NCBI GenBank assembly: GCA_902521465.1
Contig: CABYRL010000002.1
Span: 58,777 to 122,776 of the forward strand
Length of the DNA stretch: 64,000 nt
Direction: 5' to 3'
Origin: an uncultured Alphaproteobacteria bacterium
GTDB taxonomy: Bacteria; Pseudomonadota; Alphaproteobacteria; HIMB59
A model generated the notes under the pieces. It ran no database searches and was not told the origin of the DNA. It saw only the letters and a list, made by a program, of their open reading frames with translations. The translations under genes were made by a program, and so were the position numbers. How positions within the stretch are numbered: position 1 is the first letter of the stretch; the number at the start of each line of letters is the position of its first letter. Below are positions 726 to 36,479 of the stretch, piece after piece.

Positions 726-1280
726 TTAATCTTTAATTCTTATTAATTTAGATTTTTTCCAGTTTGGAATAAATTTTATAACATCAATGTCATTTCCCAA
801 ACCAGGATTAAAATTTTTATTATGCCAAAAAATATTTTCCCAATGTTCCTCATTTTTATCGAGAATAAAAGGAGAGCATGACAATCTATAATTTGTAGAA
901 AGGTGAATAAAATCTAAGATACATGAGCCGTCTTTAACTACTTTTTTTGAGATACTTGAGTTTTTTGGAAAAGTAGCAAATAAAGAGTCTGAAAATTTAT
1001 CTTTATCCATAAAATATTCAGAAGATAAAAATTTATTCATTTTATCAAATCGATCAGCAGGATCGTAAGTTCGTTTAAAAGTGTGTTCAAACAGTTTTGT
1101 AGTGTTTACAGGATCATTTTCCGAAATTACAACAATAATTCTTAGAAGTTCATTTCCTTTCTTATCAAGCAATATAGGTGCCATAGATGAATTTGGTCTG
1201 CCATTTTGTGTTCTAAATGCCTGAATTCTAGATTGACATTGCCAATCAAGAAACTTTTCTTGTAAAACTTCAGGTGTCAT
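726..1280 (-). CDS. Hypothetical protein downstream of gmaS
   Basis: 184-aa ORF starting 7 nt after the gmaS stop on the same strand (FLDWQCQSR..., FWHN..FNP motifs); function not recognised. Confidence 0.75.
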   Translation of the reverse strand: MTPEVLQEKFLDWQCQSRIQAFRTQNGRPNSSMAPILLDKKGNELLRIIVVISENDPVNTTKLFEHTFKRTYDPADRFDKMNKFLSSEYFMDKDKFSDSLFATFPKNSSISKKVVKDGSCILDFIHLSTNYRLSCSPFILDKNEEHWENIFWHNKNFNPGLGNDIDVIKFIPNWKKSKLIRIKD

Positions 1281-26439: not shown

Positions 26440-26517
26440 GGCGGGTGTAGCTCAGTTGGTTAGAGCGCCGGTTTGTGGTACCGGAGGTCGGGGGTTCAAG
26501 TCCCCTTACTCGCCCCA
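26440..26517 (+). tRNA. tRNA-His(GTG) with encoded G-1, C73 and CCA
   Basis: Acceptor GCGGGTG/TACTCGC, anticodon arm CCGGT-TTGTGGT-ACCGG, T-arm GGGGG-TTCAAGT-CCCCT, then C-CCA; G at 26440 is the -1 base. Confidence 0.96.
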
Positions 26518-26523
26518 ATTTGT

Positions 26524-26605
26524 GCGCCAGTGGCGGAATGGTAGACGCGCTGGTCTTAGGAACCAGTGGGCAACCGTGGGGGTTCGAGTCCCTCCTGGCG
26601 CACCA
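26524..26605 (+). tRNA. tRNA-Leu(TAG)
   Basis: GCGCCAG acceptor, GGCGGAATGGTAGACGC D-arm, CTGGT-CTTAGGA-ACCAG, long variable arm, TTCGAGT, ACCA. Confidence 0.96.
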
Positions 26606-29692: not shown

Positions 29693-32110
29693 ATGGAAAA
29701 TCAAATCATTGGACCCATTTTACCTTTAAGGGATTTAGTTGTTTATCCCTCTATAACCTCACCTTTGTTTGTTGGCCGAGCTAAATCTATTGATGCAATT
29801 AATTTTGCCATGAATAATAATAACAAGATTATTTATTTATTTACACAAAAAGAACCAACCACTGATGATCCCCAAGTTAACGATGTTTATTCCTACGGAG
29901 TAAAATCAAAAATTATTCAGTTTCTTAAGTTACCTGACAATACATATAAAGTTCTTACTGAAGGTTTAGAAATTGTGAAGATAAAGTCTGCTGTTAAGGC
30001 AAGTAATAACTTCCTTACAGCTAAAATTGAAACAGTAGTAATTAACAAAAAAAATTCAGTTGAATTAAAAGCCTCTTTGAGAGTCTTAAAAAATGAATTT
30101 CAAAACTATATACAAAATATAGGAAATAATAATGACATCCTTGAAGGGCTTTTAAATATTGAAGATCCATATCAGTTTATTGATAATATTTATTACAACT
30201 TAAATGTTGGAATTGAAGATAAACAAAAAAATTTAGAAATTATTGACATTAATAAAAAAATTCAAAATCTACTGAATTTCTTTTCAAAAGAACTCAACTT
30301 TTCTGCTCTTGAGAAAAAAATTAAAAATAGAGTAAAAAGACAAATGGAAAAAACTCAGAGAGAGTACTACCTAAATGAACAAATGAAAGCCATACAGAAA
30401 GAACTTGGTGATGGTGAAGACGGTTCTAACGAGTACTCTGAAATAGAGAAAAAGATTAATGAGGTAAAATTATCAAAAGAGGCAAAAGAAAAAGCTTTAA
30501 ATGAATTTAAAAAATTAAAATCTATGAGTCCAATGTCTGCTGAGGCATCTGTTATTCGTAATTACCTTGAATGGATATTAGATATACCATGGGAAAATTT
30601 CTCAAAAGAAGTTATAGACATAAAAGGTTCTGAAAAAATATTAAATGACGATCACTATGGTCTCGAAAAAGTAAAAGAGAGAATACTTGAATTTTTAGCA
30701 GTAAAAAAAAGATCAAAGAAAGCATCTGGTACAATACTTTGTTTTGTAGGACCTCCTGGTGTGGGTAAAACTTCATTAGGTAAATCTATAGCTAGAGCTA
30801 CTGGCAGAGAATTTGCAAAGATTTCTCTTGGTGGAATTAGGGACGAGGCTGAGATTAGAGGTCATAGAAGAACTTATATTGGCTCAATGCCTGGTCGATT
30901 TATTCAGGCTATGAAGAAAACCAAAACATCTAATCCTATTATTTTATTAGATGAAATTGACAAAGTGGGCAGTGACTGGAGAGGAGATCCATCCTCTGCA
31001 TTATTAGAAGTTTTAGATCCTGAGCAAAATAATCAATTTAATGATCATTATCTTGAGGTTGATTATGACTTATCAAATGTAATGTTTATATGCACAGGTA
31101 ATACTTACAACATACCTGGTCCTCTTCTTGACAGATTAGAGATCATTGAAGTATCTGGTTACACAGAAAAAGAAAAAGTTGAAATTGCCAAAAAATATTT
31201 AATTCCAAGAAAAATGAATAAAAATATCTTAAAAAATAATGAATTTAAGCTTGATAAAAGCTCAATTACCAAAATAGTAAGACACTACACCAGAGAGTCA
31301 GGTGTCAGAGGGCTCGAAAAAGTCTTTGATAAGCTTTTTAGAAAACTTGTTTTTCAATTAGAAAAAAATAAATCAAGGTCAAAAAAACCATTTGTATTTG
31401 ATGATAAAGCTATAAAAAATTTTTTAGGCCCAGAAAAATTTAAGGATAGTATTTTAGAAAAGAAAAATTTAGTTGGCATCACCAACGGGCTTGCATGGAC
31501 TCAGGTTGGTGGAGATATCTTAAATATTGAAGTTAATTTATCTTCAGGTAAGGGGATGATTAATGCAACAGGTAAACTTGGTGACGTGATGAAAGAGTCT
31601 ATTACTGCTGCTTTAGGTTACATTAAATCTAATTCCGTTGAGTTTGGAGTAAATCCAAAGGTCTTCGATAAAATAGATATTCATTTACATGTACCTGAAG
31701 GAGCTATACCTAAAGATGGTCCAAGTGCTGGAATTACAATATTTACCTCATTAATTTCATCTCTAACTGATATTAAAATTAAAAGAGACATTGCAATGAC
31801 TGGGGAAATTACATTAAAAGGAAGAGTTCTACCAATTGGGGGATTAAAAGAGAAATTATTGGCTGCGATAAGGTACGGTATTAAAACTGTTATAATACCA
31901 AAAGAAAATGAAAAGGACTTAGTTGAAATACAAAAAGACATTCAAAACAAGTTGATAATTAAGAAAGTCGAGTTTGCGAAAGAGGTATTGGACTTAGCTC
32001 TCGATGGAAAAATTAGTAAAATCAACAAAAAATTAGACTGGAGACACCTAGTTACAGAGTCTATGAAGCCAAAAAACCAGCAAAATCAAGAAAAAACATT
32101 CGTCAACTAG
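29693..32110 (+). CDS. lon: Lon protease
   Basis: LPLRD, GPPGVGKTS, RGHRRTYIG, PKDGPSAG, MTGE, IGGLKEK. Confidence 0.98.
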   Translation: MENQIIGPILPLRDLVVYPSITSPLFVGRAKSIDAINFAMNNNNKIIYLFTQKEPTTDDPQVNDVYSYGVKSKIIQFLKLPDNTYKVLTEGLEIVKIKSAVKASNNFLTAKIETVVINKKNSVELKASLRVLKNEFQNYIQNIGNNNDILEGLLNIEDPYQFIDNIYYNLNVGIEDKQKNLEIIDINKKIQNLLNFFSKELNFSALEKKIKNRVKRQMEKTQREYYLNEQMKAIQKELGDGEDGSNEYSEIEKKINEVKLSKEAKEKALNEFKKLKSMSPMSAEASVIRNYLEWILDIPWENFSKEVIDIKGSEKILNDDHYGLEKVKERILEFLAVKKRSKKASGTILCFVGPPGVGKTSLGKSIARATGREFAKISLGGIRDEAEIRGHRRTYIGSMPGRFIQAMKKTKTSNPIILLDEIDKVGSDWRGDPSSALLEVLDPEQNNQFNDHYLEVDYDLSNVMFICTGNTYNIPGPLLDRLEIIEVSGYTEKEKVEIAKKYLIPRKMNKNILKNNEFKLDKSSITKIVRHYTRESGVRGLEKVFDKLFRKLVFQLEKNKSRSKKPFVFDDKAIKNFLGPEKFKDSILEKKNLVGITNGLAWTQVGGDILNIEVNLSSGKGMINATGKLGDVMKESITAALGYIKSNSVEFGVNPKVFDKIDIHLHVPEGAIPKDGPSAGITIFTSLISSLTDIKIKRDIAMTGEITLKGRVLPIGGLKEKLLAAIRYGIKTVIIPKENEKDLVEIQKDIQNKLIIKKVEFAKEVLDLALDGKISKINKKLDWRHLVTESMKPKNQQNQEKTFVN

Positions 32111-32120
32111 TATATTGTTG

Positions 32121-32150
32121 TTGATTTTCTTACCTTTTTCTTACTACAAT
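32121..32150 (+). promoter_or_regulatory. Candidate sigma70 promoter for hup-tRNA-Val-tRNA-Asp
   Basis: TTGATT-N18-TACAAT in the lon-hup gap, upstream of an AAGGAGG RBS. Confidence 0.4.
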
Positions 32151-32180
32151 TAACTAATAGAATCACTAAGGAGGTTCGGT

Positions 32181-32462
32181 ATGAACAAAAATGAACTCAT
32201 TGCTGAATATAGTACGAAAAATGGTGTTGGAAAATCAGATGCAACTAAGGCTGTAGAAAGTTTATTTGATATTATCACATCTACTTTGAAAGCAGGAGGG
32301 GATGTTAAGATTGCCGGTTTTGGTACTTTTAAGGTAGCTAACACAAAAGCTAAGACTGGAAGAAACCCAAGAACGGGAGAGTCAATCCAAATTCCTGCAT
32401 CAAAAAAGCCAAAATTTCTTGCTGGAAAACAGCTAAAAGAACTAATAAAGTCCACAGTCTAA
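32181..32462 (+). CDS. hup: DNA-binding protein HU
   Basis: MNKNELI, GFGTF, GRNPRTGE.IQIPA..KPKF.AGK.LK. Confidence 0.96.
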   Translation: MNKNELIAEYSTKNGVGKSDATKAVESLFDIITSTLKAGGDVKIAGFGTFKVANTKAKTGRNPRTGESIQIPASKKPKFLAGKQLKELIKSTV

Positions 32463-32480
32463 TTTTTTGCAAATTAGATA

Positions 32481-32556
32481 GGGCGATTAGCTCAGTTGGT
32501 AGAGCATCTCGTTTACACCGAGAGGGTCGGCGGTTCGAGTCCGTCATCGCCCACCA
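32481..32556 (+). tRNA. tRNA-Val(TAC)
   Basis: GGGCGAT/ATCGCCC acceptor, TCTCG-TTTACAC-CGAGA anticodon arm, ACCA; 76 nt. Confidence 0.97.
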
Positions 32557-32569
32557 TTCGACAATTGTC

Positions 32570-32647
32570 GGGGGTGTAGTTCAGTTTGGTTAGAACGCCT
32601 GCCTGTCACGCAGGAGGTCGCGGGTTCGAGTCCCGTCGCTCCCGCCA
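32570..32647 (+). tRNA. tRNA-Asp(GTC); integration target
   Basis: GGGGGTG/CGCTCCC acceptor, CCTGC-CTGTCAC-GCAGG anticodon arm, G73-CCA. Confidence 0.97.
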
Positions 32648-32650
32648 CTT
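32603..32650 (+). repeat. att-like repeat copy 1 (tRNA-Asp 3' half plus CTT)
   Basis: CTGTCACGCAGGAGGTCGCGGGTTCGAGTCCCGTCGCTCCCGCCACTT; starts at the first base of the anticodon loop. Confidence 0.95.
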
Positions 32651-32696
32651 TTATAAGGGAGTGGGTTATATTTTTCCTAACTTTTTCAATAGTTAT

Positions 32697-32782
32697 CTGT
32701 TCAACAAAAAAACATTGAATCAATAAACCATGTCGTCTAATTCCCTAAAATTTCTTTCTAGTGGTGAACATATGGTGAGCAA
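32697..32782. repeat. Left motif block: CTGTTCAACA, then GGTGAACA-TAT-GGTGAGCAA
   Basis: Mirrored by 35131-35215 (18/20 identity in the tandem pair; spacing 66 vs 65 nt). Confidence 0.7.
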
Positions 32783-32811
32783 AACCCCCCATGTACTTTT
32801 AGACAATAATA

Positions 32812-32976
32812 ATGGAAGTGATTTCAATGCAGAACAGATTTCCCAATCCCATACCCTATAGCTTTGGGAAATGGGAAAAGCCAAAGAAGGTTATCTGTAT
32901 TGCTTCAGAAATTAGAAAGTCACTTGAAGAGAGTGATCAAAAAGAACTACATAAACTATTTTGGAAGAGAGCATAA
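32812..32976 (+). CDS. 54-aa hypothetical protein (below ORF-track cutoff)
   Basis: MEVISMQNRFPNPIPYSFGKWEKPKKVICIASEIRKSLEESDQKELHKLFWKRA*; its TAA abuts the ATG of the next ORF. Confidence 0.5.
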   Translation: MEVISMQNRFPNPIPYSFGKWEKPKKVICIASEIRKSLEESDQKELHKLFWKRA

Positions 32977-33162
32977 ATGGATCGTTACTTATCGGACTAT
33001 GAAAAACTTCTTCATGAATACGAAAGGATTGAGTCAAAACTTAATAGCCTTTTTATTCAGACTGATCTATCAGAGTCAGCTAGAAAGAAGTTAGAAATAA
33101 GTTTGAAGAGAAGATTAAAAACACTACTACCTGAACTAAGAAAAAAAGAATTAGAAGTTTAA
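32977..33162 (+). CDS. 61-aa hypothetical helical/coiled-coil protein
   Basis: ORF track; amphipathic charged helix; TAAATG junction with the upstream ORF. Confidence 0.6.
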   Translation: MDRYLSDYEKLLHEYERIESKLNSLFIQTDLSESARKKLEISLKRRLKTLLPELRKKELEV

Positions 33163-33200
33163 TATCGTTTCTAGTTCATTCGTGTCGTTACTTAAATTCT

Positions 33201-33238
33201 TCCAAATTTGATGAATTTAATGCGAAATTAATTGAAAT
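33201..33238 (+). repeat. 38-bp direct repeat, copy 1
   Basis: TCCAAATTTGATGAATTTAATGCGAAATTAATTGAAAT; 37/38 identical to 34725-34762. Confidence 0.95.
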
Positions 33239-33249
33239 TGATTCAATTT

Positions 33250-34677
33250 TTACATTAAGTATTCTTCAAGCAAAGATATTGTTTTTTTTGCAGAATTAAT
33301 AGCCGCTTCATTGTTTCTTCCCTCTACGACCCCCCAATGCTCACATTCTTTTTTATAATCTTTGTAATGCTTATCAGCAGAAACATCCCAAGTATCGTAA
33401 TTATCTAAATGAATTACTTTATCTTCCATTCGCCACGTTCTTTTTCCATCCGCAGCAAGCCAGTATTTGCAATTTTTAGTTACTCTAAACCATTGATTTG
33501 AAAATTCTGCCTCATCCCAATTGCTCCATCCATCAAAGTTATGATGGGCGTTAGGAAAAATATCTATAGTTGCATTACCACCAAAATCGTTAAAGTTTTT
33601 TGCCATATCTTTACAAAATAAGGCAGGAGTAGTCTCATCCTTTTCACCTGTTAAAAAATGAATTTTATTTTTAGTTACACCCTGTTTATCTAAATATCTA
33701 CAATATGGATAAACTCCTATTCTTAATGCAAAATCATTTAAATTTTCATCATCAATTATTGGCTTTCTAATCATATCAAGACCAGTGTAAACTGCAGATG
33801 AACCACCCCAACTAAAACCCATTACCGCAATTTTTTCAGGATCTATTTTGGGATGAGATTGCATGTGCTTTAAACCATAGAGAGCGTCAGCTGCTCCCAT
33901 CCATGGTGTTAGTTTACTGCTGTTGCCTTGGATAATCATATTGTAAATACTGAGGCCTCGTGGAAGACAGCTATCAATCTCTAATGTAGCAACACCTGCT
34001 TTTTTTATATCCTGACCTAAAGTAAAATTTCTTTGCCCAAAGTCACAGGCAGAATTCATAATTAAAATCATTAAAGGATATTTTTCTTTTTGCTCTTGAG
34101 GGTAAGTTAAAAAACCCTCAATCGTATATTTTTGATCATTTTCAACACCATCTATAAAATCAATAGGAATTCTGGGAGTAAATGCTTCAAATTTAACATT
34201 CTCTGCTCGATAGAGCAGAGCATCGCAATTATTCCATTCATCAGTGACCTCAATATGATTATTGCTTGACATTTTCCCAAACCACTTCCTGGTATTATCC
34301 TTATCATCAACAGGCTCTTTGCTTACAATTTCGAAAGAATTCTCATTAACCTTAAATGATTTTATTTTGACTCTTCCTCCAAAAGATGGCCAAAGCCATT
34401 TTTCTTTTTTTATAATAACTTTTTTGGGATCTTTCTTATCTTTTTTGATAACTAGATCAATTACACCTTCAATAATTCCATTGCCTAACTCATAGCGTCC
34501 ATTCCATTCGCAATTAGCTAAACCTCTCCATCTCCCAATGATATTTGAGGATATTTCCTCAGATTTTAATACTTTATCTTCCGTTTTTTCATTGCCATCA
34601 ACTTGTTGCCCATCCTTAAAAGTAAGTCCCCAACTCAAACTAGGGATTAATAGTAATAGGGTGATAATTATTCTCAT
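33250..34677 (-). CDS. Secreted dienelactone-hydrolase-family alpha/beta hydrolase with extra N-terminal domain
   Basis: Signal peptide MRIIITLLLLIPSLSWG (ATG at 34677 preferred over 34713); IDPEKIAVMGFSWGG, GEKDETTP, FPNAHHNFD. Confidence 0.85.
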   Translation of the reverse strand: MRIIITLLLLIPSLSWGLTFKDGQQVDGNEKTEDKVLKSEEISSNIIGRWRGLANCEWNGRYELGNGIIEGVIDLVIKKDKKDPKKVIIKKEKWLWPSFGGRVKIKSFKVNENSFEIVSKEPVDDKDNTRKWFGKMSSNNHIEVTDEWNNCDALLYRAENVKFEAFTPRIPIDFIDGVENDQKYTIEGFLTYPQEQKEKYPLMILIMNSACDFGQRNFTLGQDIKKAGVATLEIDSCLPRGLSIYNMIIQGNSSKLTPWMGAADALYGLKHMQSHPKIDPEKIAVMGFSWGGSSAVYTGLDMIRKPIIDDENLNDFALRIGVYPYCRYLDKQGVTKNKIHFLTGEKDETTPALFCKDMAKNFNDFGGNATIDIFPNAHHNFDGWSNWDEAEFSNQWFRVTKNCKYWLAADGKRTWRMEDKVIHLDNYDTWDVSADKHYKDYKKECEHWGVVEGRNNEAAINSAKKTISLLEEYLM

Positions 34678-34724
34678 AAGATATATTATTGTACATAGTG
34701 GATTTAAAATCAAAACGAAATTTG

Positions 34725-34762
34725 TCCAAATTTGATGAATTTAATGCGAAATTAATCGAAAT
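34725..34762 (+). repeat. 38-bp direct repeat, copy 2
   Basis: TCCAAATTTGATGAATTTAATGCGAAATTAATCGAAAT. Confidence 0.95.
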
Positions 34763-35130
34763 ACTTCTCTATACAAATAAAATGCTCTCTCTATGAGGGG
34801 GTTATTAGGGTTATTTTGTTAATGTTTTCAATTGTTGATACGGAGTTCTTAGTAGTTTTTCCGTATTTCTCGCACAGAACTCTCCTAGGTAATGTAACCT
34901 TTTGTTACCCTGAAATGTTTACTTTTGTTAACTTTGAAAGCTACGCATAGGGGGGGTTCAAAATTACTAAAGGTACACTTTAATACATGTTTAACACGCA
35001 TTTTTGAATCGTAGGGTACGAAGTAAATGCTACCCCCGTAACAAGTTAACATCAGGCTAACACCATGCTCTATGATTCCTAAAACAGCGTTTCGCGGTGC
35101 ATGATCCATGGTCAAATATCAATGGATATT

Positions 35131-35215
35131 CTGTTCACCAATATTGGAATATTTGAATCATTATTTCGTAAAATGTGGTAGTGTTTCAGTAGAAAGGTGA
35201 ACACTTGGTGAGCAA
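35131..35215. repeat. Right motif block: CTGTTCACCA, then GGTGAACA-CTT-GGTGAGCAA
   Basis: Same order, orientation and spacing as 32697-32782; ends 60 nt before the distal att copy. Confidence 0.7.
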
Positions 35216-35275
35216 CTCTTATGGGTGTTTAAAAAGGCTTGGTAATATAGGCTTAAAACAACCTAGGATTCCTTA

Positions 35276-35323
35276 CTGTCACGCAGGAGGTCGCGGGTTC
35301 GAGTCCCGTCGCTCCCGCCACTT
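35276..35323 (+). repeat. att-like repeat copy 2 (displaced tRNA-Asp 3' fragment)
   Basis: 48/48 identity with 32603-32650; lacks the tRNA 5' half, so it is not a functional tRNA. Confidence 0.95.
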
Positions 35324-36350
35324 CAAAATATTCATTTCGTTTTTTTTAATTTTTTCTTTATTTTCATGTTCTTCTTATAAATCAAAAGATGTTCATGGAT
35401 TAAAGACACTTGGTATGAGCTTTGGCGATACAACAATTAAAGGTTTTAAAATTGACCCAGGTTGGAATGCTAGTTCAAAAGATGAAATAAAAAAATATCA
35501 AAGAAAAAAAAACTTGGTACTTTTTCAACTTCAGAAAGAGAAAACAAGATACGGAGATACTGCTTTTTTTATCCAAGCACCAGGAGATGAGTGTTATAAC
35601 AAATTAAAAGATTGCTCACGACCAAATGGTGAAAAACAAAAAAGAGTAGAGGTAGGAACCAATTATGGTTTTCAAGGAGAAATATGGTTATCTTATTCTT
35701 TTTTAATCACAGAAAATTACGAACTAAATAATGATAGCGCTATGAATAAATCAATATTGCAATTTCATAGCACAGAGAGTTTTTTTGGTCCTATGTTTAT
35801 GCTTCAAATAGACAAGAAGAAAGGTTTGCTTTGGAGACACGAATCTAGTGAGGGAGTTATTATTATTCAAGGAGGGAATGATGATTGCTCACCTGGTGCT
35901 GGAGGTCCAGAGGATACTGATAAAAGAATTTTTTGTGAAGCTAGGCATGATTGGTACCAAATAATATCTGCAAAAAATTTACAAAGAAATAAATGGTATG
36001 ATTTAGTCTTCAATATTAATTTTAATAAAAAGGATATTTCCAAAGCTTTTCATAAAATTTGGTTAAATGGAAAGTTATTGCATTACAGAAAAAACCAAAC
36101 ACTCTGGAAAGATCAAAAAGGTGTAAAAAACTCAGATAATTTGGCAAATTTTAAATTTGGTATTTATGGTTCAAGATTAGATGGCTCTTATCAATCTATT
36201 TATGCTGATGAAATCCACTTTGGAACTGAATGTAATGACCTTTTAATAGAAAATATTGGCTATCATTGTAGTAATCTAAAAAAACAAACAATAAATGAAT
36301 CATTTCCTATCTTTACAGAAGATAGAGTTGCTTATTATACTAGAGGATAA
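35322..36350 (+). CDS. Polysaccharide-lyase-like (heparin lyase I-type) lipoprotein; start codon unresolved
   Basis: Lipobox-like KIFISFFLIFSLFS-C; KRVE, ILQFH, KWYD, IWLNGK, FKFGIY, IYADE motifs typical of these beta-sandwich lyases. Confidence 0.7.
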   Translation, partial: FKIFISFFLIFSLFSCSSYKSKDVHGLKTLGMSFGDTTIKGFKIDPGWNASSKDEIKKYQRKKNLVLFQLQKEKTRYGDTAFFIQAPGDECYNKLKDCSRPNGEKQKRVEVGTNYGFQGEIWLSYSFLITENYELNNDSAMNKSILQFHSTESFFGPMFMLQIDKKKGLLWRHESSEGVIIIQGGNDDCSPGAGGPEDTDKRIFCEARHDWYQIISAKNLQRNKWYDLVFNINFNKKDISKAFHKIWLNGKLLHYRKNQTLWKDQKGVKNSDNLANFKFGIYGSRLDGSYQSIYADEIHFGTECNDLLIENIGYHCSNLKKQTINESFPIFTEDRVAYYTRG

Positions 36351-36479
36351 AATATTTTTTTAACTTTTTTACACTCAAATATCTAAAAATCAAGTGTAAG
36401 ACTAATGCGTCATTTTTATCGTCACTAAATACATATTGTTTCTTATAATGTATTGCGTTACGGAAAATCAAAACTTTTA

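What the first reader, a model, noticed from the sequence alone, without database searches (positions are those of the whole stretch)
33201..34762. Single-gene cassette bracketed by 38-bp direct repeats inside the islet
Seen: 37/38-identical repeats sit 11 nt beyond the stop and 47 nt before the start of the hydrolase gene, enclosing exactly one gene. They lack attC-type palindromy and IS ends. On the minus strand the repeat contains ATTTCGCATTA (9/11 to the pdif XerC arm ATTTCGTATAA), but the XerD-side arm does not match. Inference: a fixed-site cassette exchange or array system nested in a tRNA islet, where each cargo gene carries one repeat; this is the most novel-looking architecture in the window.
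Basis: partly seen in the sequence, partly recalled or inferred. Interest (0 to 1): 0.75.

Follow-up and report, generated by a model that had tools for sequence, protein, structure and literature searches.

The report
Hydrolase module duplicated a satellite backbone segment
The two 38-bp repeats are real, but they are two copies of a backbone segment found in a family of small SAR11 (Pelagibacter) mobile islands, duplicated when a 1.5-kb hydrolase gene module recombined into a decayed island; this looks like ordinary short-homology recombination, not a new cassette-exchange system.

Summary
They lie 1,524 bp apart and enclose one minus-strand gene, a secreted dienelactone-hydrolase-family enzyme.

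The window is SAR11. The islet (32648-35323) is the remnant of a ~5.8-kb island integrated at tRNA-Asp, of the phage-satellite type (integrase, excisionase, primase, helicase). It lost those genes through a 4.7-kb deletion.

The repeat, 'R', is a backbone segment of this island family. I found one copy per element in lineages at tRNA-Asp, tRNA-Arg and tRNA-Lys. It sits between a 27-aa hydrophobic small ORF and a conserved promoter-like element upstream of the cargo genes.

About 27 full-length tRNA-Asp elements carry one R and no hydrolase. Only one lineage (six genomes) carries two. The same 1,524-bp unit occurs circularly permuted in another island (L004, L075), where shared signal-peptide DNA bounds it instead of R.

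Best reading: a single-crossover insertion by general recombination on short shared sequence. I found no arrays, no per-gene repeat, no attC hairpin and no dedicated recombinase, and the Xer resemblance is at chance level. Interest is moderate to low.

The parts
32570..32647 (+). tRNA-Asp(GTC), the integration target. Its last 45 nt (from 32603) plus 3 flanking nt, to 32650, form the att core that is repeated at 35276-35323. tRNA-Val lies just upstream at 32481-32556.
   Evidence: ARAGORN; Rfam; repeat family D1; core positions
32651..32843 (+). Left end of the decayed island: the stretch that precedes the integrase gene in full-length relatives. It ends at the deletion junction AGATTTCC (32836-32843, 8-nt microhomology), where 4,687 bp (integrase, 369-aa ORF, excisionase-like, primase, AAA_25 helicase) are missing.
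   Evidence: BLAST to L005/L036; junction sequences; tblastn of the integrase finds only a 42-aa remnant at 32730-32873
32977..33162 (+). 61-aa ORF, the last backbone gene of the tRNA-Asp island. Function unknown; no Pfam or PHROG hit.
   Evidence: found on hundreds of contigs, always 30-38 nt upstream of R
33194..33238 (+). R copy 1 (exact core 33201-33232). Its left flank is island backbone; its right flank is the 3' end of the module.
33217..33249 (-). Remnant of the small ORF's 3' end (KLNQFQLISH*). It directly follows the hydrolase stop codon and overlaps R copy 1. It shows that the module's own R came from a canonical small ORF-R unit of another island.
33250..34677 (-). Cargo gene: secreted alpha/beta hydrolase of the dienelactone hydrolase family, 475 aa, with a GFSWG nucleophile motif and an uncharacterised N-terminal ~190 aa. 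The signal peptide MRIIITLLLLIPSLSWG is encoded at 34627-34677.
   Evidence: present in contigs from metatranscriptome runs
34685..34713 (-). Promoter-like element TTGATT-N17-AATAAT, 7 nt upstream of the ATG. The hexamers and spacer length are conserved in other islands while the spacer sequence varies.
   Evidence: scan (the count in the region equals chance, so the scan alone proves nothing); alignment A1 one search shows the conservation
34718..34762 (+). R copy 2 (exact core 34725-34756). Its left flank is the module's promoter region; its right flank is the island's non-coding end region.
34763..35275 (.). Non-coding end region of the island. It contains a degenerate small-ORF frame (34741-34818, minus strand, no start codon) and blocks shared with the equivalent regions of the tRNA-Arg and other islands.
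35276..35323 (+). attR: 48-nt copy of the tRNA-Asp 3' end, identical to 32603-32650.

Best explanation
R is a conserved backbone segment of a family of small SAR11 islands that integrate at tRNA genes. These islands have a P4-type integrase, an excisionase-like regulator and primase/helicase or DnaD-like replication genes, and they fit the marine phage satellites called VEIMEs. Read in the direction of the cargo genes, R covers the last five codons and stop of a 27-aa hydrophobic small ORF plus the ~25 nt that precede a conserved promoter-like element. The cargo genes follow.

The window's islet began as a cargo-less 5.8-kb tRNA-Asp island with one R. A 1,524-bp module then entered it. The module carries the promoter, signal-peptide leader, hydrolase, a 30-nt small-ORF tail and its own R. 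It entered by one reciprocal crossover between its R and the resident R, on 38 identical bp. This is Campbell-type insertion of a circular or tandemly duplicated intermediate, and it necessarily leaves R on both sides.

I infer that host general (homology-dependent) recombination did this, not a dedicated recombinase. Later an 8-bp-microhomology deletion removed integrase through helicase and immobilised the islet. The islet now spreads between SAR11 lineages by recombination in the flanking core genes.

Shown: the repeat; the empty, filled and permuted forms with breakpoints in R; the position of R in the family; the deletion. Inferred: the circular intermediate, the enzyme, and the promoter function.
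For: 1. Organism and locus. The 26-mer scan hits only Pelagibacteraceae single-cell genomes. The context is lon-hupB-tRNA-Val-tRNA-Asp-[islet]-nuoA.

2. All four junction types are present. Backbone+R+module 3' end and module 5' end+R+island end occur in the window. Backbone+R+island end is the empty form (L005, L006, L009-L016, L036, L040, L042 and others). Module 5' end+R+module 3' end occurs in L004 and L075.

3. The empty state is ancestral. L012 is 71-84% identical in the flanks and has one R and no hydrolase. So do about 27 distinct contigs of the tRNA-Asp island.

4. R is backbone. The nhmmer profile gives one hit per element in islands at tRNA-Arg (L027-L032, attR fragment near L028 6030-6073), tRNA-Lys (L014), L017 and L008. 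It is always in the same orientation relative to the integrase and always next to the small ORF.

5. L004 and L075 carry the same unit (97% identical) circularly permuted. There it is bounded by two signal-peptide copies 1,524 bp apart instead of by R.

6. L035 and L038 show further rearrangements that break in the signal-peptide DNA. Metagenome contigs branch at 34627-34661. This supports short-homology recombination as the general process here.

7. The 4,687-bp deletion with microhomology is shown.

8. Full-length relatives encode integrase, excisionase, primase and helicase and occur as 2.5-3.25-unit tandem contigs. This matches the VEIME description in PMC9618062.

9. PMC11796062 reports SAR11 islands at tRNAs with partial tRNA repeats, and exchange of one- or two-gene fragments by homologous recombination.
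Against: No circular or tandem intermediate was observed; only short Logan contigs were available and no Nanopore run was served. Only one insertion at R is documented, so the position of the crossover cannot be compared between events. From memory, 38 bp of identity is close to the lower limit for efficient RecA-dependent exchange in E. coli, and the limit in SAR11 is unknown. R is nearly invariant across islands whose other parts do not align, and neither coding, RNA structure nor the insertion history explains that. It could be a protein-binding site, and a recombinase site is not excluded. The donor element, an island with an intact small ORF-R-promoter-hydrolase, was not found.
Confidence: 0.62

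Rival explanations
1. Two islands sat in tandem at tRNA-Asp. An internal deletion ran from 30 nt into the first island's small ORF to just past the hydrolase stop codon in the second. It removed the first island's end region, the att core and the whole backbone of the second island. R1 and R2 are then simply the two islands' own R copies, and no exchange at R was needed to create the window's structure.
For: Tandem or stacked islands at this tRNA are observed (L005/L046 has a second module after the tRNA fragment). Illegitimate deletions are frequent at this locus: 4,687 bp in the window, the R2-to-36321 deletion in L035, and the 34808-35843 deletion in L007. In all other islands cargo sits between the backbone and promoter-R, which is where the hydrolase would sit in the second island.
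Against: The model needs a first island that combines the tRNA-Asp backbone with a canonical small-ORF tail. None of about 27 tRNA-Asp contigs has that; their R hits stop at profile position 59, not 72. It also does not remove the need for an exchange inside R. The permuted order in L004/L075 (hydrolase-tail-R-promoter-signal peptide) requires R1 to have been joined to what follows R2 at least once.
Confidence: 0.2
2. R is a dedicated recombination site, a functional analogue of integron attI/attC or of Xer-dependent modules. A recombinase (the island's integrase with its excisionase, or a host enzyme) captures and releases promoter-gene-R circles at this site.
For: Breakpoints lie exactly in R, and filled, empty and joined forms all exist. 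R is far better conserved than its surroundings across islands with different integrases and replication genes. It lies at the border of the cargo region in every lineage. It contains four roughly 10-bp-phased GAAATTNAT-like motifs, read directly from the sequence, which is a pattern typical of protein-binding sites. In the P0124 sister clade R is replaced in a patch while both flanks stay above 90% identical.
Against: There is one R per element even with multi-gene cargo, and no arrays. Only one insertion lineage is known. The same unit uses signal-peptide DNA as its boundary elsewhere. R has no hairpin. No inverted-repeat core is conserved between R variants, as read from alignment A1. The Xer half-site is at chance level and the second arm is absent. 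The integrases of these islands target GC-rich tRNA 3' ends that are unlike R. Hydrolase homologues at 60-80% identity outside these islands have no R.
Confidence: 0.1
3. The repeat is a chance match, an assembly artefact, or a local one-off promoter duplication with no relation to gene movement.
For: R does lie next to a promoter-like element.
Against: The 32-mer matches 0 of 100 shuffles. The same structure appears in five independent single-cell assemblies and in metagenome contigs. Empty and permuted forms exist.
Confidence: 0.01

Closest known systems
VEIMEs, marine phage satellites of Pelagibacter (Eppley et al. 2022, PNAS, PMC9618062); more broadly P4-like satellites and PICIs
   Same: The full-length relative of the islet is ~5.8 kb. 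It encodes a tyrosine integrase, an excisionase/AlpA-like regulator and primase plus helicase. It is integrated in Pelagibacter single-cell genomes and assembles as head-to-tail multimers.
   Different: The window's copy has lost all of these genes. Packaging in virions and a helper phage could not be tested. R, the small ORF and the cargo promoter are not features described in that paper as far as I could read it. Identity with a specific published VEIME was not checked.
SAR11 flexible genomic islands at tRNA genes with a partial tRNA repeat (PMC11796062, Microbiome 2025)
   Same: A small islet next to a tRNA with a >90% identical partial tRNA copy, variable one- or two-gene content, and exchange attributed to homologous recombination.
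   Different: That work reports almost no mobile-element genes in the islands. Here the islet can be traced to a specific integrase-bearing element and a specific internal joint (R).
Tycheposons of Prochlorococcus (Hackl et al. 2023, Cell; recalled from memory, cited in papers found)
   Same: Small tRNA-targeting elements with a tyrosine recombinase, sometimes primase/helicase, cargo at the far end, and remnants left in tandem next to the tRNA.
   Different: Different host and, presumably, different integrase clades (not tested). No equivalent of R or the small ORF is known to me.
Integron cassettes (attI/attC, IntI, Pc promoter)
   Same: A cargo region headed by a conserved promoter next to a conserved site, and a single-gene unit that carries one copy of the site.
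   Different: No IntI, no attC hairpin, no GTTRRRY core, no arrays. The module brings its own promoter.
pdif modules and Xer-dependent integrative elements
   Same: Small gene modules bracketed by short sites without their own recombinase.
   Different: R has no XerD arm. The XerC-like half is a chance-level match. The repeats are direct, whereas the two sites bracketing a pdif module face each other (from memory).
Campbell-type insertion of a circular DNA by homologous recombination, and cis-mobilisable remnants such as CIMEs or stacked SCC elements
   Same: A single crossover duplicates the shared sequence on both sides of the insert; loop-out restores the empty site; decayed elements are left bracketed by repeats.
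   Different: Here the shared sequence is only 38-45 bp and lies inside another mobile element.

Membership tests
Integron gene cassette (attC) / attI platform | attC folds as an imperfect hairpin in single-stranded DNA (R''-L''/L'-R' inverted repeats) | tested here: not met
   Strand folding, DNA parameters: copy 2 gives z = -0.34 and +0.15; the fold of copy 1 uses its flanks and differs from copy 2
Integron gene cassette (attC) / attI platform | IntI-type integrase adjacent to the array | tested here: not met
   No integrase remains in the window's islet. The family's integrase is P4-type, PF13356+PF00589, and targets tRNA 3' ends. The IntI-specific insertion was not examined.
Integron gene cassette (attC) / attI platform | Arrays of cassettes, one site per cassette | tested here: not met
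   One R per element in 50+ loci; two only in the window-type lineage; multi-gene cargo still has a single R
Xer/dif-type site (pdif module, IMEX) | 28-bp site: 11-bp XerC arm, 6-bp spacer, 11-bp XerD arm | tested here: not met
   The 9/11 XerC-like match occurs 67 times in the window against 63 +/- 7.7 by chance. The stretch at the XerD position, TCAAATTTGGA, shares 4/11 with TTATGTTAAAT (consensus recalled from memory).
Xer/dif-type site (pdif module, IMEX) | The two sites bracketing a module face each other (pdif modules; from memory) | tested here: not met
   The two copies are direct repeats
attL/attR of a site-specific integrative element | Direct repeats at both ends, an empty site with one copy, and a joined (attP-like) form | tested here: met
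   All four junction types were found. The joined form was seen only embedded in another island, not as a circle.
attL/attR of a site-specific integrative element | A cognate recombinase encoded by or linked to the unit, acting at a fixed crossover point | tested here: inconclusive
   The unit encodes only the hydrolase. Only one insertion event is known, so crossover positions cannot be compared. Other junctions of the same unit lie in signal-peptide DNA.
VEIME / phage satellite (applies to the islet, not to the repeat) | 5-17 kb element with integrase plus replication and regulatory genes and no capsid genes | tested here: met
   Met for full-length relatives (L036, L009: integrase, excisionase-like, primase, AAA_25 helicase). 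The window's copy is a deletion remnant.
VEIME / phage satellite (applies to the islet, not to the repeat) | Site-specific integration in host genomes | tested here: met
   The 48-nt tRNA-Asp 3' end is repeated at both ends in the window, L036, L040 and L042
VEIME / phage satellite (applies to the islet, not to the repeat) | Concatemeric DNA packaged in phage particles with the aid of a helper phage | not testable with these tools
   Contigs with 2.5-3.25 head-to-tail units and no chromosomal flank exist (FUFK010041992.1 = L009/L011; L037, L048, L065). Their physical origin is unknown. R is absent from phage collections.
Dienelactone hydrolase family (the cargo gene) | Match to Pfam PF01738 above the gathering score; alpha/beta-hydrolase nucleophile motif G-x-S-x-G | tested here: met
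   33.4 bits against a cut-off of 21. GFSWG is present in the translation. Only weak PDB relatives were found, E about 2e-4. The substrate is unknown.

The most novel reading that the evidence does not exclude
R, together with the adjacent small ORF and promoter, is a dedicated cargo-capture and expression platform of Pelagibacter phage satellites. It would be a functional analogue of integron attI plus Pc that uses an AT-rich, non-hairpin site. A satellite or host protein would recombine promoter-gene-R circles into it, and the window would preserve one such capture.
Probability: 0.07. Interest if true: 0.85.

Novelty: new variant of a known kind. Interest (0 to 1): 0.38.

Why it matters
The result takes an apparently novel 'cassette system' back to something ordinary: a decayed SAR11 phage-satellite-type island that gained one cargo gene by recombination on 38 bp of shared backbone.

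Three points may still interest people who study the SAR11 flexible genome.
- Islands with different integrases and tRNA targets share a nearly invariant ~150-nt head of the cargo region (small ORF, R, promoter). Its function is unknown.
- Cargo genes are reshuffled at two short shared sequences, R and a signal-peptide leader that is common to unrelated secreted enzymes such as hydrolases and polysaccharide lyases. This offers a concrete mechanism for the exchange of one- or two-gene fragments reported in SAR11 populations.
- An immobilised islet is more conserved between diverged genomes than the core genes beside it.

Tried and rejected
- Xer/dif reading: the half-site is at chance level and there is no second arm.
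- attC-like hairpin: none.
- Structured RNA in the small ORF-R-promoter module: consensus energy -1 kcal/mol and no compensatory pairs. Rfam finds only tRNAs in the window.
- R as a packaging site shared with a helper phage: no match in INPHARED phages beyond the tRNA part, and none in IMG/VR with two patterns. An integrase-based scan of IMG/VR also found nothing.
- R travelling with the hydrolase family: homologues at 60-80% identity (L018-L020) have no R.
- Circles or deletion joints in reads: Logan contigs are too short and break at R and at the signal peptide, so no joints were reported. No Nanopore run was served.
- More insertions at R: about 40 further contexts of the adjacent 61-aa ORF show only the empty form or the hydrolase form.
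- A recombinase in the window's islet: only a 42-aa leader remnant remains.
- An intact donor island with small ORF-R-promoter-hydrolase: not found.
Full report
**1. The observation**

The direct repeat is real. Positions 33194-33238 and 34718-34762 match at 42 of 45. The exact 32-mer TCCAAATTTGATGAATTTAATGCGAAATTAAT lies at 33201-33232 and 34725-34756. Even with three mismatches allowed, it occurs twice in the window and never in 100 shuffles.

The copies are 1,524 bp apart. They enclose one minus-strand gene, 33250-34677, of 475 aa. It has a signal peptide and a dienelactone-hydrolase (PF01738) domain. Copy 1 ends 11 nt past the stop codon, and copy 2's core begins 47 nt before the ATG.

Five independent single-cell assemblies carry the same two-copy structure. 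It is therefore not an assembly artefact.

**2. Where the window comes from**

A scan of one genome per species found a 26-mer from within the repeat only in Pelagibacteraceae (SAR11) single-cell genomes. The local gene order is lon, hupB, tRNA-Val, tRNA-Asp, islet, a polysaccharide-lyase-like gene, then nuoA onwards.

The islet runs from the end of tRNA-Asp (32647) to a 48-nt copy of the tRNA's 3' end at 35276-35323. That is the signature of integration at the tRNA.

**3. What the islet is**

Related loci show a full-length, ~5.8-kb element at the same site (period 5,826 bp in L036). It encodes:
- a P4-type tyrosine integrase (PF13356+PF00589);
- a 369-aa protein of unknown function;
- an excisionase/regulator-like protein;
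- a Toprim primase;
- an AAA_25 helicase;
- the 61-aa ORF that the window still has at 32977-33162.

After the 61-aa ORF come R, about 510 nt of non-coding DNA and the att core. The window lacks 4,687 bp, from integrase to helicase. The junction is an 8-nt microhomology, AGATTTCC, at 32836-32843. No integrase homologue remains in the window.

The element is abundant. Variants of the 61-aa protein occur on hundreds of contigs. Several contigs consist of 2.5 to 3.25 head-to-tail units with no chromosomal flank. [quoted passage not shown] I could not compare sequences with that dataset.

**4. What R is**

I built a profile of R with its flanks and searched all 74 loci fetched by then. It finds one copy per element, apart from the head-to-tail multimer contigs, and two copies 1,524 bp apart only in the window-type lineage.

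R is present in islands with different integrases and targets:
- tRNA-Asp;
- tRNA-Arg (L027-L032, attR fragment near L028 6030-6073);
- tRNA-Lys (L014);
- L017, which carries 7 kb of cargo;
- L008.

R always has the same orientation relative to the integrase. It always lies at the far border of the cargo region.

Read in the direction of the cargo genes, R covers the last five codons and stop codon of a 27-aa hydrophobic ORF. That ORF is MNPFVIMAAVLITSFCLKLNQFHLISH in L017. It is intact in three lineages, frameshifted in L014 and degenerate in the tRNA-Asp island. About 25 nt further on comes a promoter-like element, TTGATT-N17-(C/A)ATAAT. Its hexamers and spacer length are conserved while the spacer sequence varies. 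The first cargo ATG follows 7-10 nt later (alignment A1; scan).

R is not a hairpin. The module has no conserved RNA structure.

So R is part of the head of the cargo region in this island family. It is not a tag carried by each cargo gene: L014, L028 and L017 have several cargo genes and one R.

**5. How the two copies arose**

All four junction types exist:

| Form | Where found |
|---|---|
| backbone + R + module 3' end | window copy 1 |
| module promoter + R + island end | window copy 2 |
| backbone + R + island end (empty) | two single-cell genomes from the first scan, more from later look-ups, and most metagenome contigs |
| module promoter + R + module 3' end | L004 and L075 |

The empty form is ancestral. 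L012 is only 71-84% identical in the flanks and has it. About 27 distinct tRNA-Asp contigs have it as well.

The inserted unit is exactly one period: promoter, signal-peptide leader, hydrolase, a 30-nt tail of a canonical small ORF (KLNQFQLISH*, directly after the hydrolase stop codon), and R. The tRNA-Asp islands do not have that canonical tail. The unit's R therefore came from another island.

L004 and L075 carry the same unit at 97% identity in circularly permuted order. There it is bounded by two copies of signal-peptide DNA 1,524 bp apart. A circular permutation requires a circular or tandem-duplicate intermediate and at least one exchange inside R.

The simplest history is a single crossover between a 1,524-bp circle and the resident R, on 38 identical bp.

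**6. Why I favour general recombination over a dedicated site**

- Only one insertion at R is documented. All two-copy genomes share the same 4.7-kb deletion junction, so they are one lineage.
- The same unit has other boundaries. In L004, L075, L035 and L038 the breaks fall in or at the shared signal-peptide DNA. L035 has a polysaccharide lyase inserted between the promoter/leader and the hydrolase. L038 has other genes upstream and no second R.
- Metagenome contigs branch at 34627-34661, and depth there is 2-4 times that of the neighbouring sequence.
- At least six unrelated mature proteins share this leader at the DNA level. The protein search also found lyases that match the hydrolase only in its first 4-6%.
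- PMC11796062 describes exchange of one- or two-gene fragments by homologous recombination in SAR11 islands, several of which carry partial tRNA repeats.
- Deletions at microhomology are common at this locus.

**7. What remains open**

A tandem pair of islands followed by an internal deletion could also give R-gene-R. I rate this at about 0.2. It needs an unobserved island variant, and it still needs one exchange in R to explain L004 and L075.

A dedicated recombination site is not excluded; I rate it at about 0.1. R is nearly invariant across islands that otherwise do not align. It carries four roughly helically phased GAAATTNAT-like motifs. In one sister clade (L055-L064) it is replaced in a patch between conserved flanks. 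These features suggest a protein-binding site of unknown function.

R is absent from phage collections. A packaging site shared with a helper phage is therefore unsupported.

**8.

- The Xer resemblance is at chance level: 67 matches in the window against 63 +/- 7.7 expected. The second arm is missing.
- Arrays and a linked recombinase were not found.
- Circles could not be tested with the reads on hand.

**9. The cargo**

The hydrolase has a GFSWG nucleophile motif, an unassigned N-terminal ~190 aa, and only weak relatives among solved structures. It appears in contigs from metatranscriptome runs. It travels with polysaccharide lyases in related islands. That hints at a role in degrading extracellular polymers, but the substrate is unknown.

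**10. Verdict**

The object is a new variant of a known kind: a cargo module inside a decayed SAR11 phage-satellite-type island, bracketed by a duplicated backbone segment. Interest is moderate to low. The conserved small ORF-R-promoter head and the shared signal-peptide joint are the parts worth a specialist's attention.

Noticed in passing
L017 10379-10462 (-), L028 5744-5827 (-), L008 around 1082-1165 (+); degenerate frame in window 34741-34818 (-): A 27-aa hydrophobic ORF (MNPFVIMAAVLITSFCLKLNQFHLISH and variants) is conserved at the head of the cargo region in three island lineages. It is frameshifted in L014 and degenerate in the tRNA-Asp islands. Its size and composition recall type I toxins or leader peptides. 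R overlaps its 3' end and is more conserved than its coding part.
   Followed up: partly
window 34627-34677 (-); L004 2279-2334, 2545-2600, 4425-4480, 5949-6004; L035, L038, L014, L026: Near-identical signal-peptide DNA (MKTLLALLLLIPSLSWG / MRIIITLLLLIPSLSWG, about 50 nt; up to ~80 nt between the hydrolase and the L035 lyase) heads at least six unrelated secreted proteins, including hydrolase, polysaccharide lyases and small proteins. It marks rearrangement breakpoints and truncated scars. In metagenome contigs it is a branching hub with 2-4 times the depth of neighbouring sequence.
   Followed up: partly
L009+L011 (FUFK010041992.1, 18.9 kb), L037, L048, L065/L068: These contigs consist of 2.5-3.25 head-to-tail copies of the 5.8-kb tRNA-Asp island with no chromosomal flank. 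This is consistent with concatemeric or circular replicative forms of an active phage-satellite-type element.
   Followed up: partly
window 31000-35323 versus L002: Between the window and L002 the core genes are diverged (lon 82%, hupB 91%), but the islet's left part is 99.5% identical and the hydrolase unit 97.5%. The immobilised islet has evidently moved between diverged SAR11 lineages, presumably by recombination in the flanks.
   Followed up: partly
window 35324-36452; L041, L042, L046, L049: The stretch between attR and nuoA is itself variable. The polysaccharide-lyase-like gene is present in the window and absent in L042. L041 has a 6,319-aa gene there. L046 has a second islet with an Mrr/helicase (restriction-like) gene, and L049 has a methyltransferase.
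   Followed up: no
window 35205-36350 (+): As a mechanical ORF, the polysaccharide-lyase-like gene (PF14099) starts inside the tRNA-Asp fragment. Its real start is probably downstream, before a lipoprotein-like leader (…FSLFSCSS).
   Followed up: no
L055-L064 (for example L055 5220-5260): A sister clade of the tRNA-Asp island (61-aa protein 80% identical) has a patch-diverged R, about 24/38 identical, while both flanks stay above 90% identical. The R patch seems to evolve or be replaced independently of its surroundings.
   Followed up: partly
L004 6817-7590 (-): The integrase ORF of the island that carries the permuted hydrolase unit is 257 aa, against 424 aa in close homologues. It is probably broken. 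This island also has cargo between the ~260-aa gene and the excisionase gene, unlike its relatives.
   Followed up: no
window 26441-26605: A second tRNA pair (His, Leu) lies 6 kb upstream. I did not check whether it also carries an islet.
   Followed up: no
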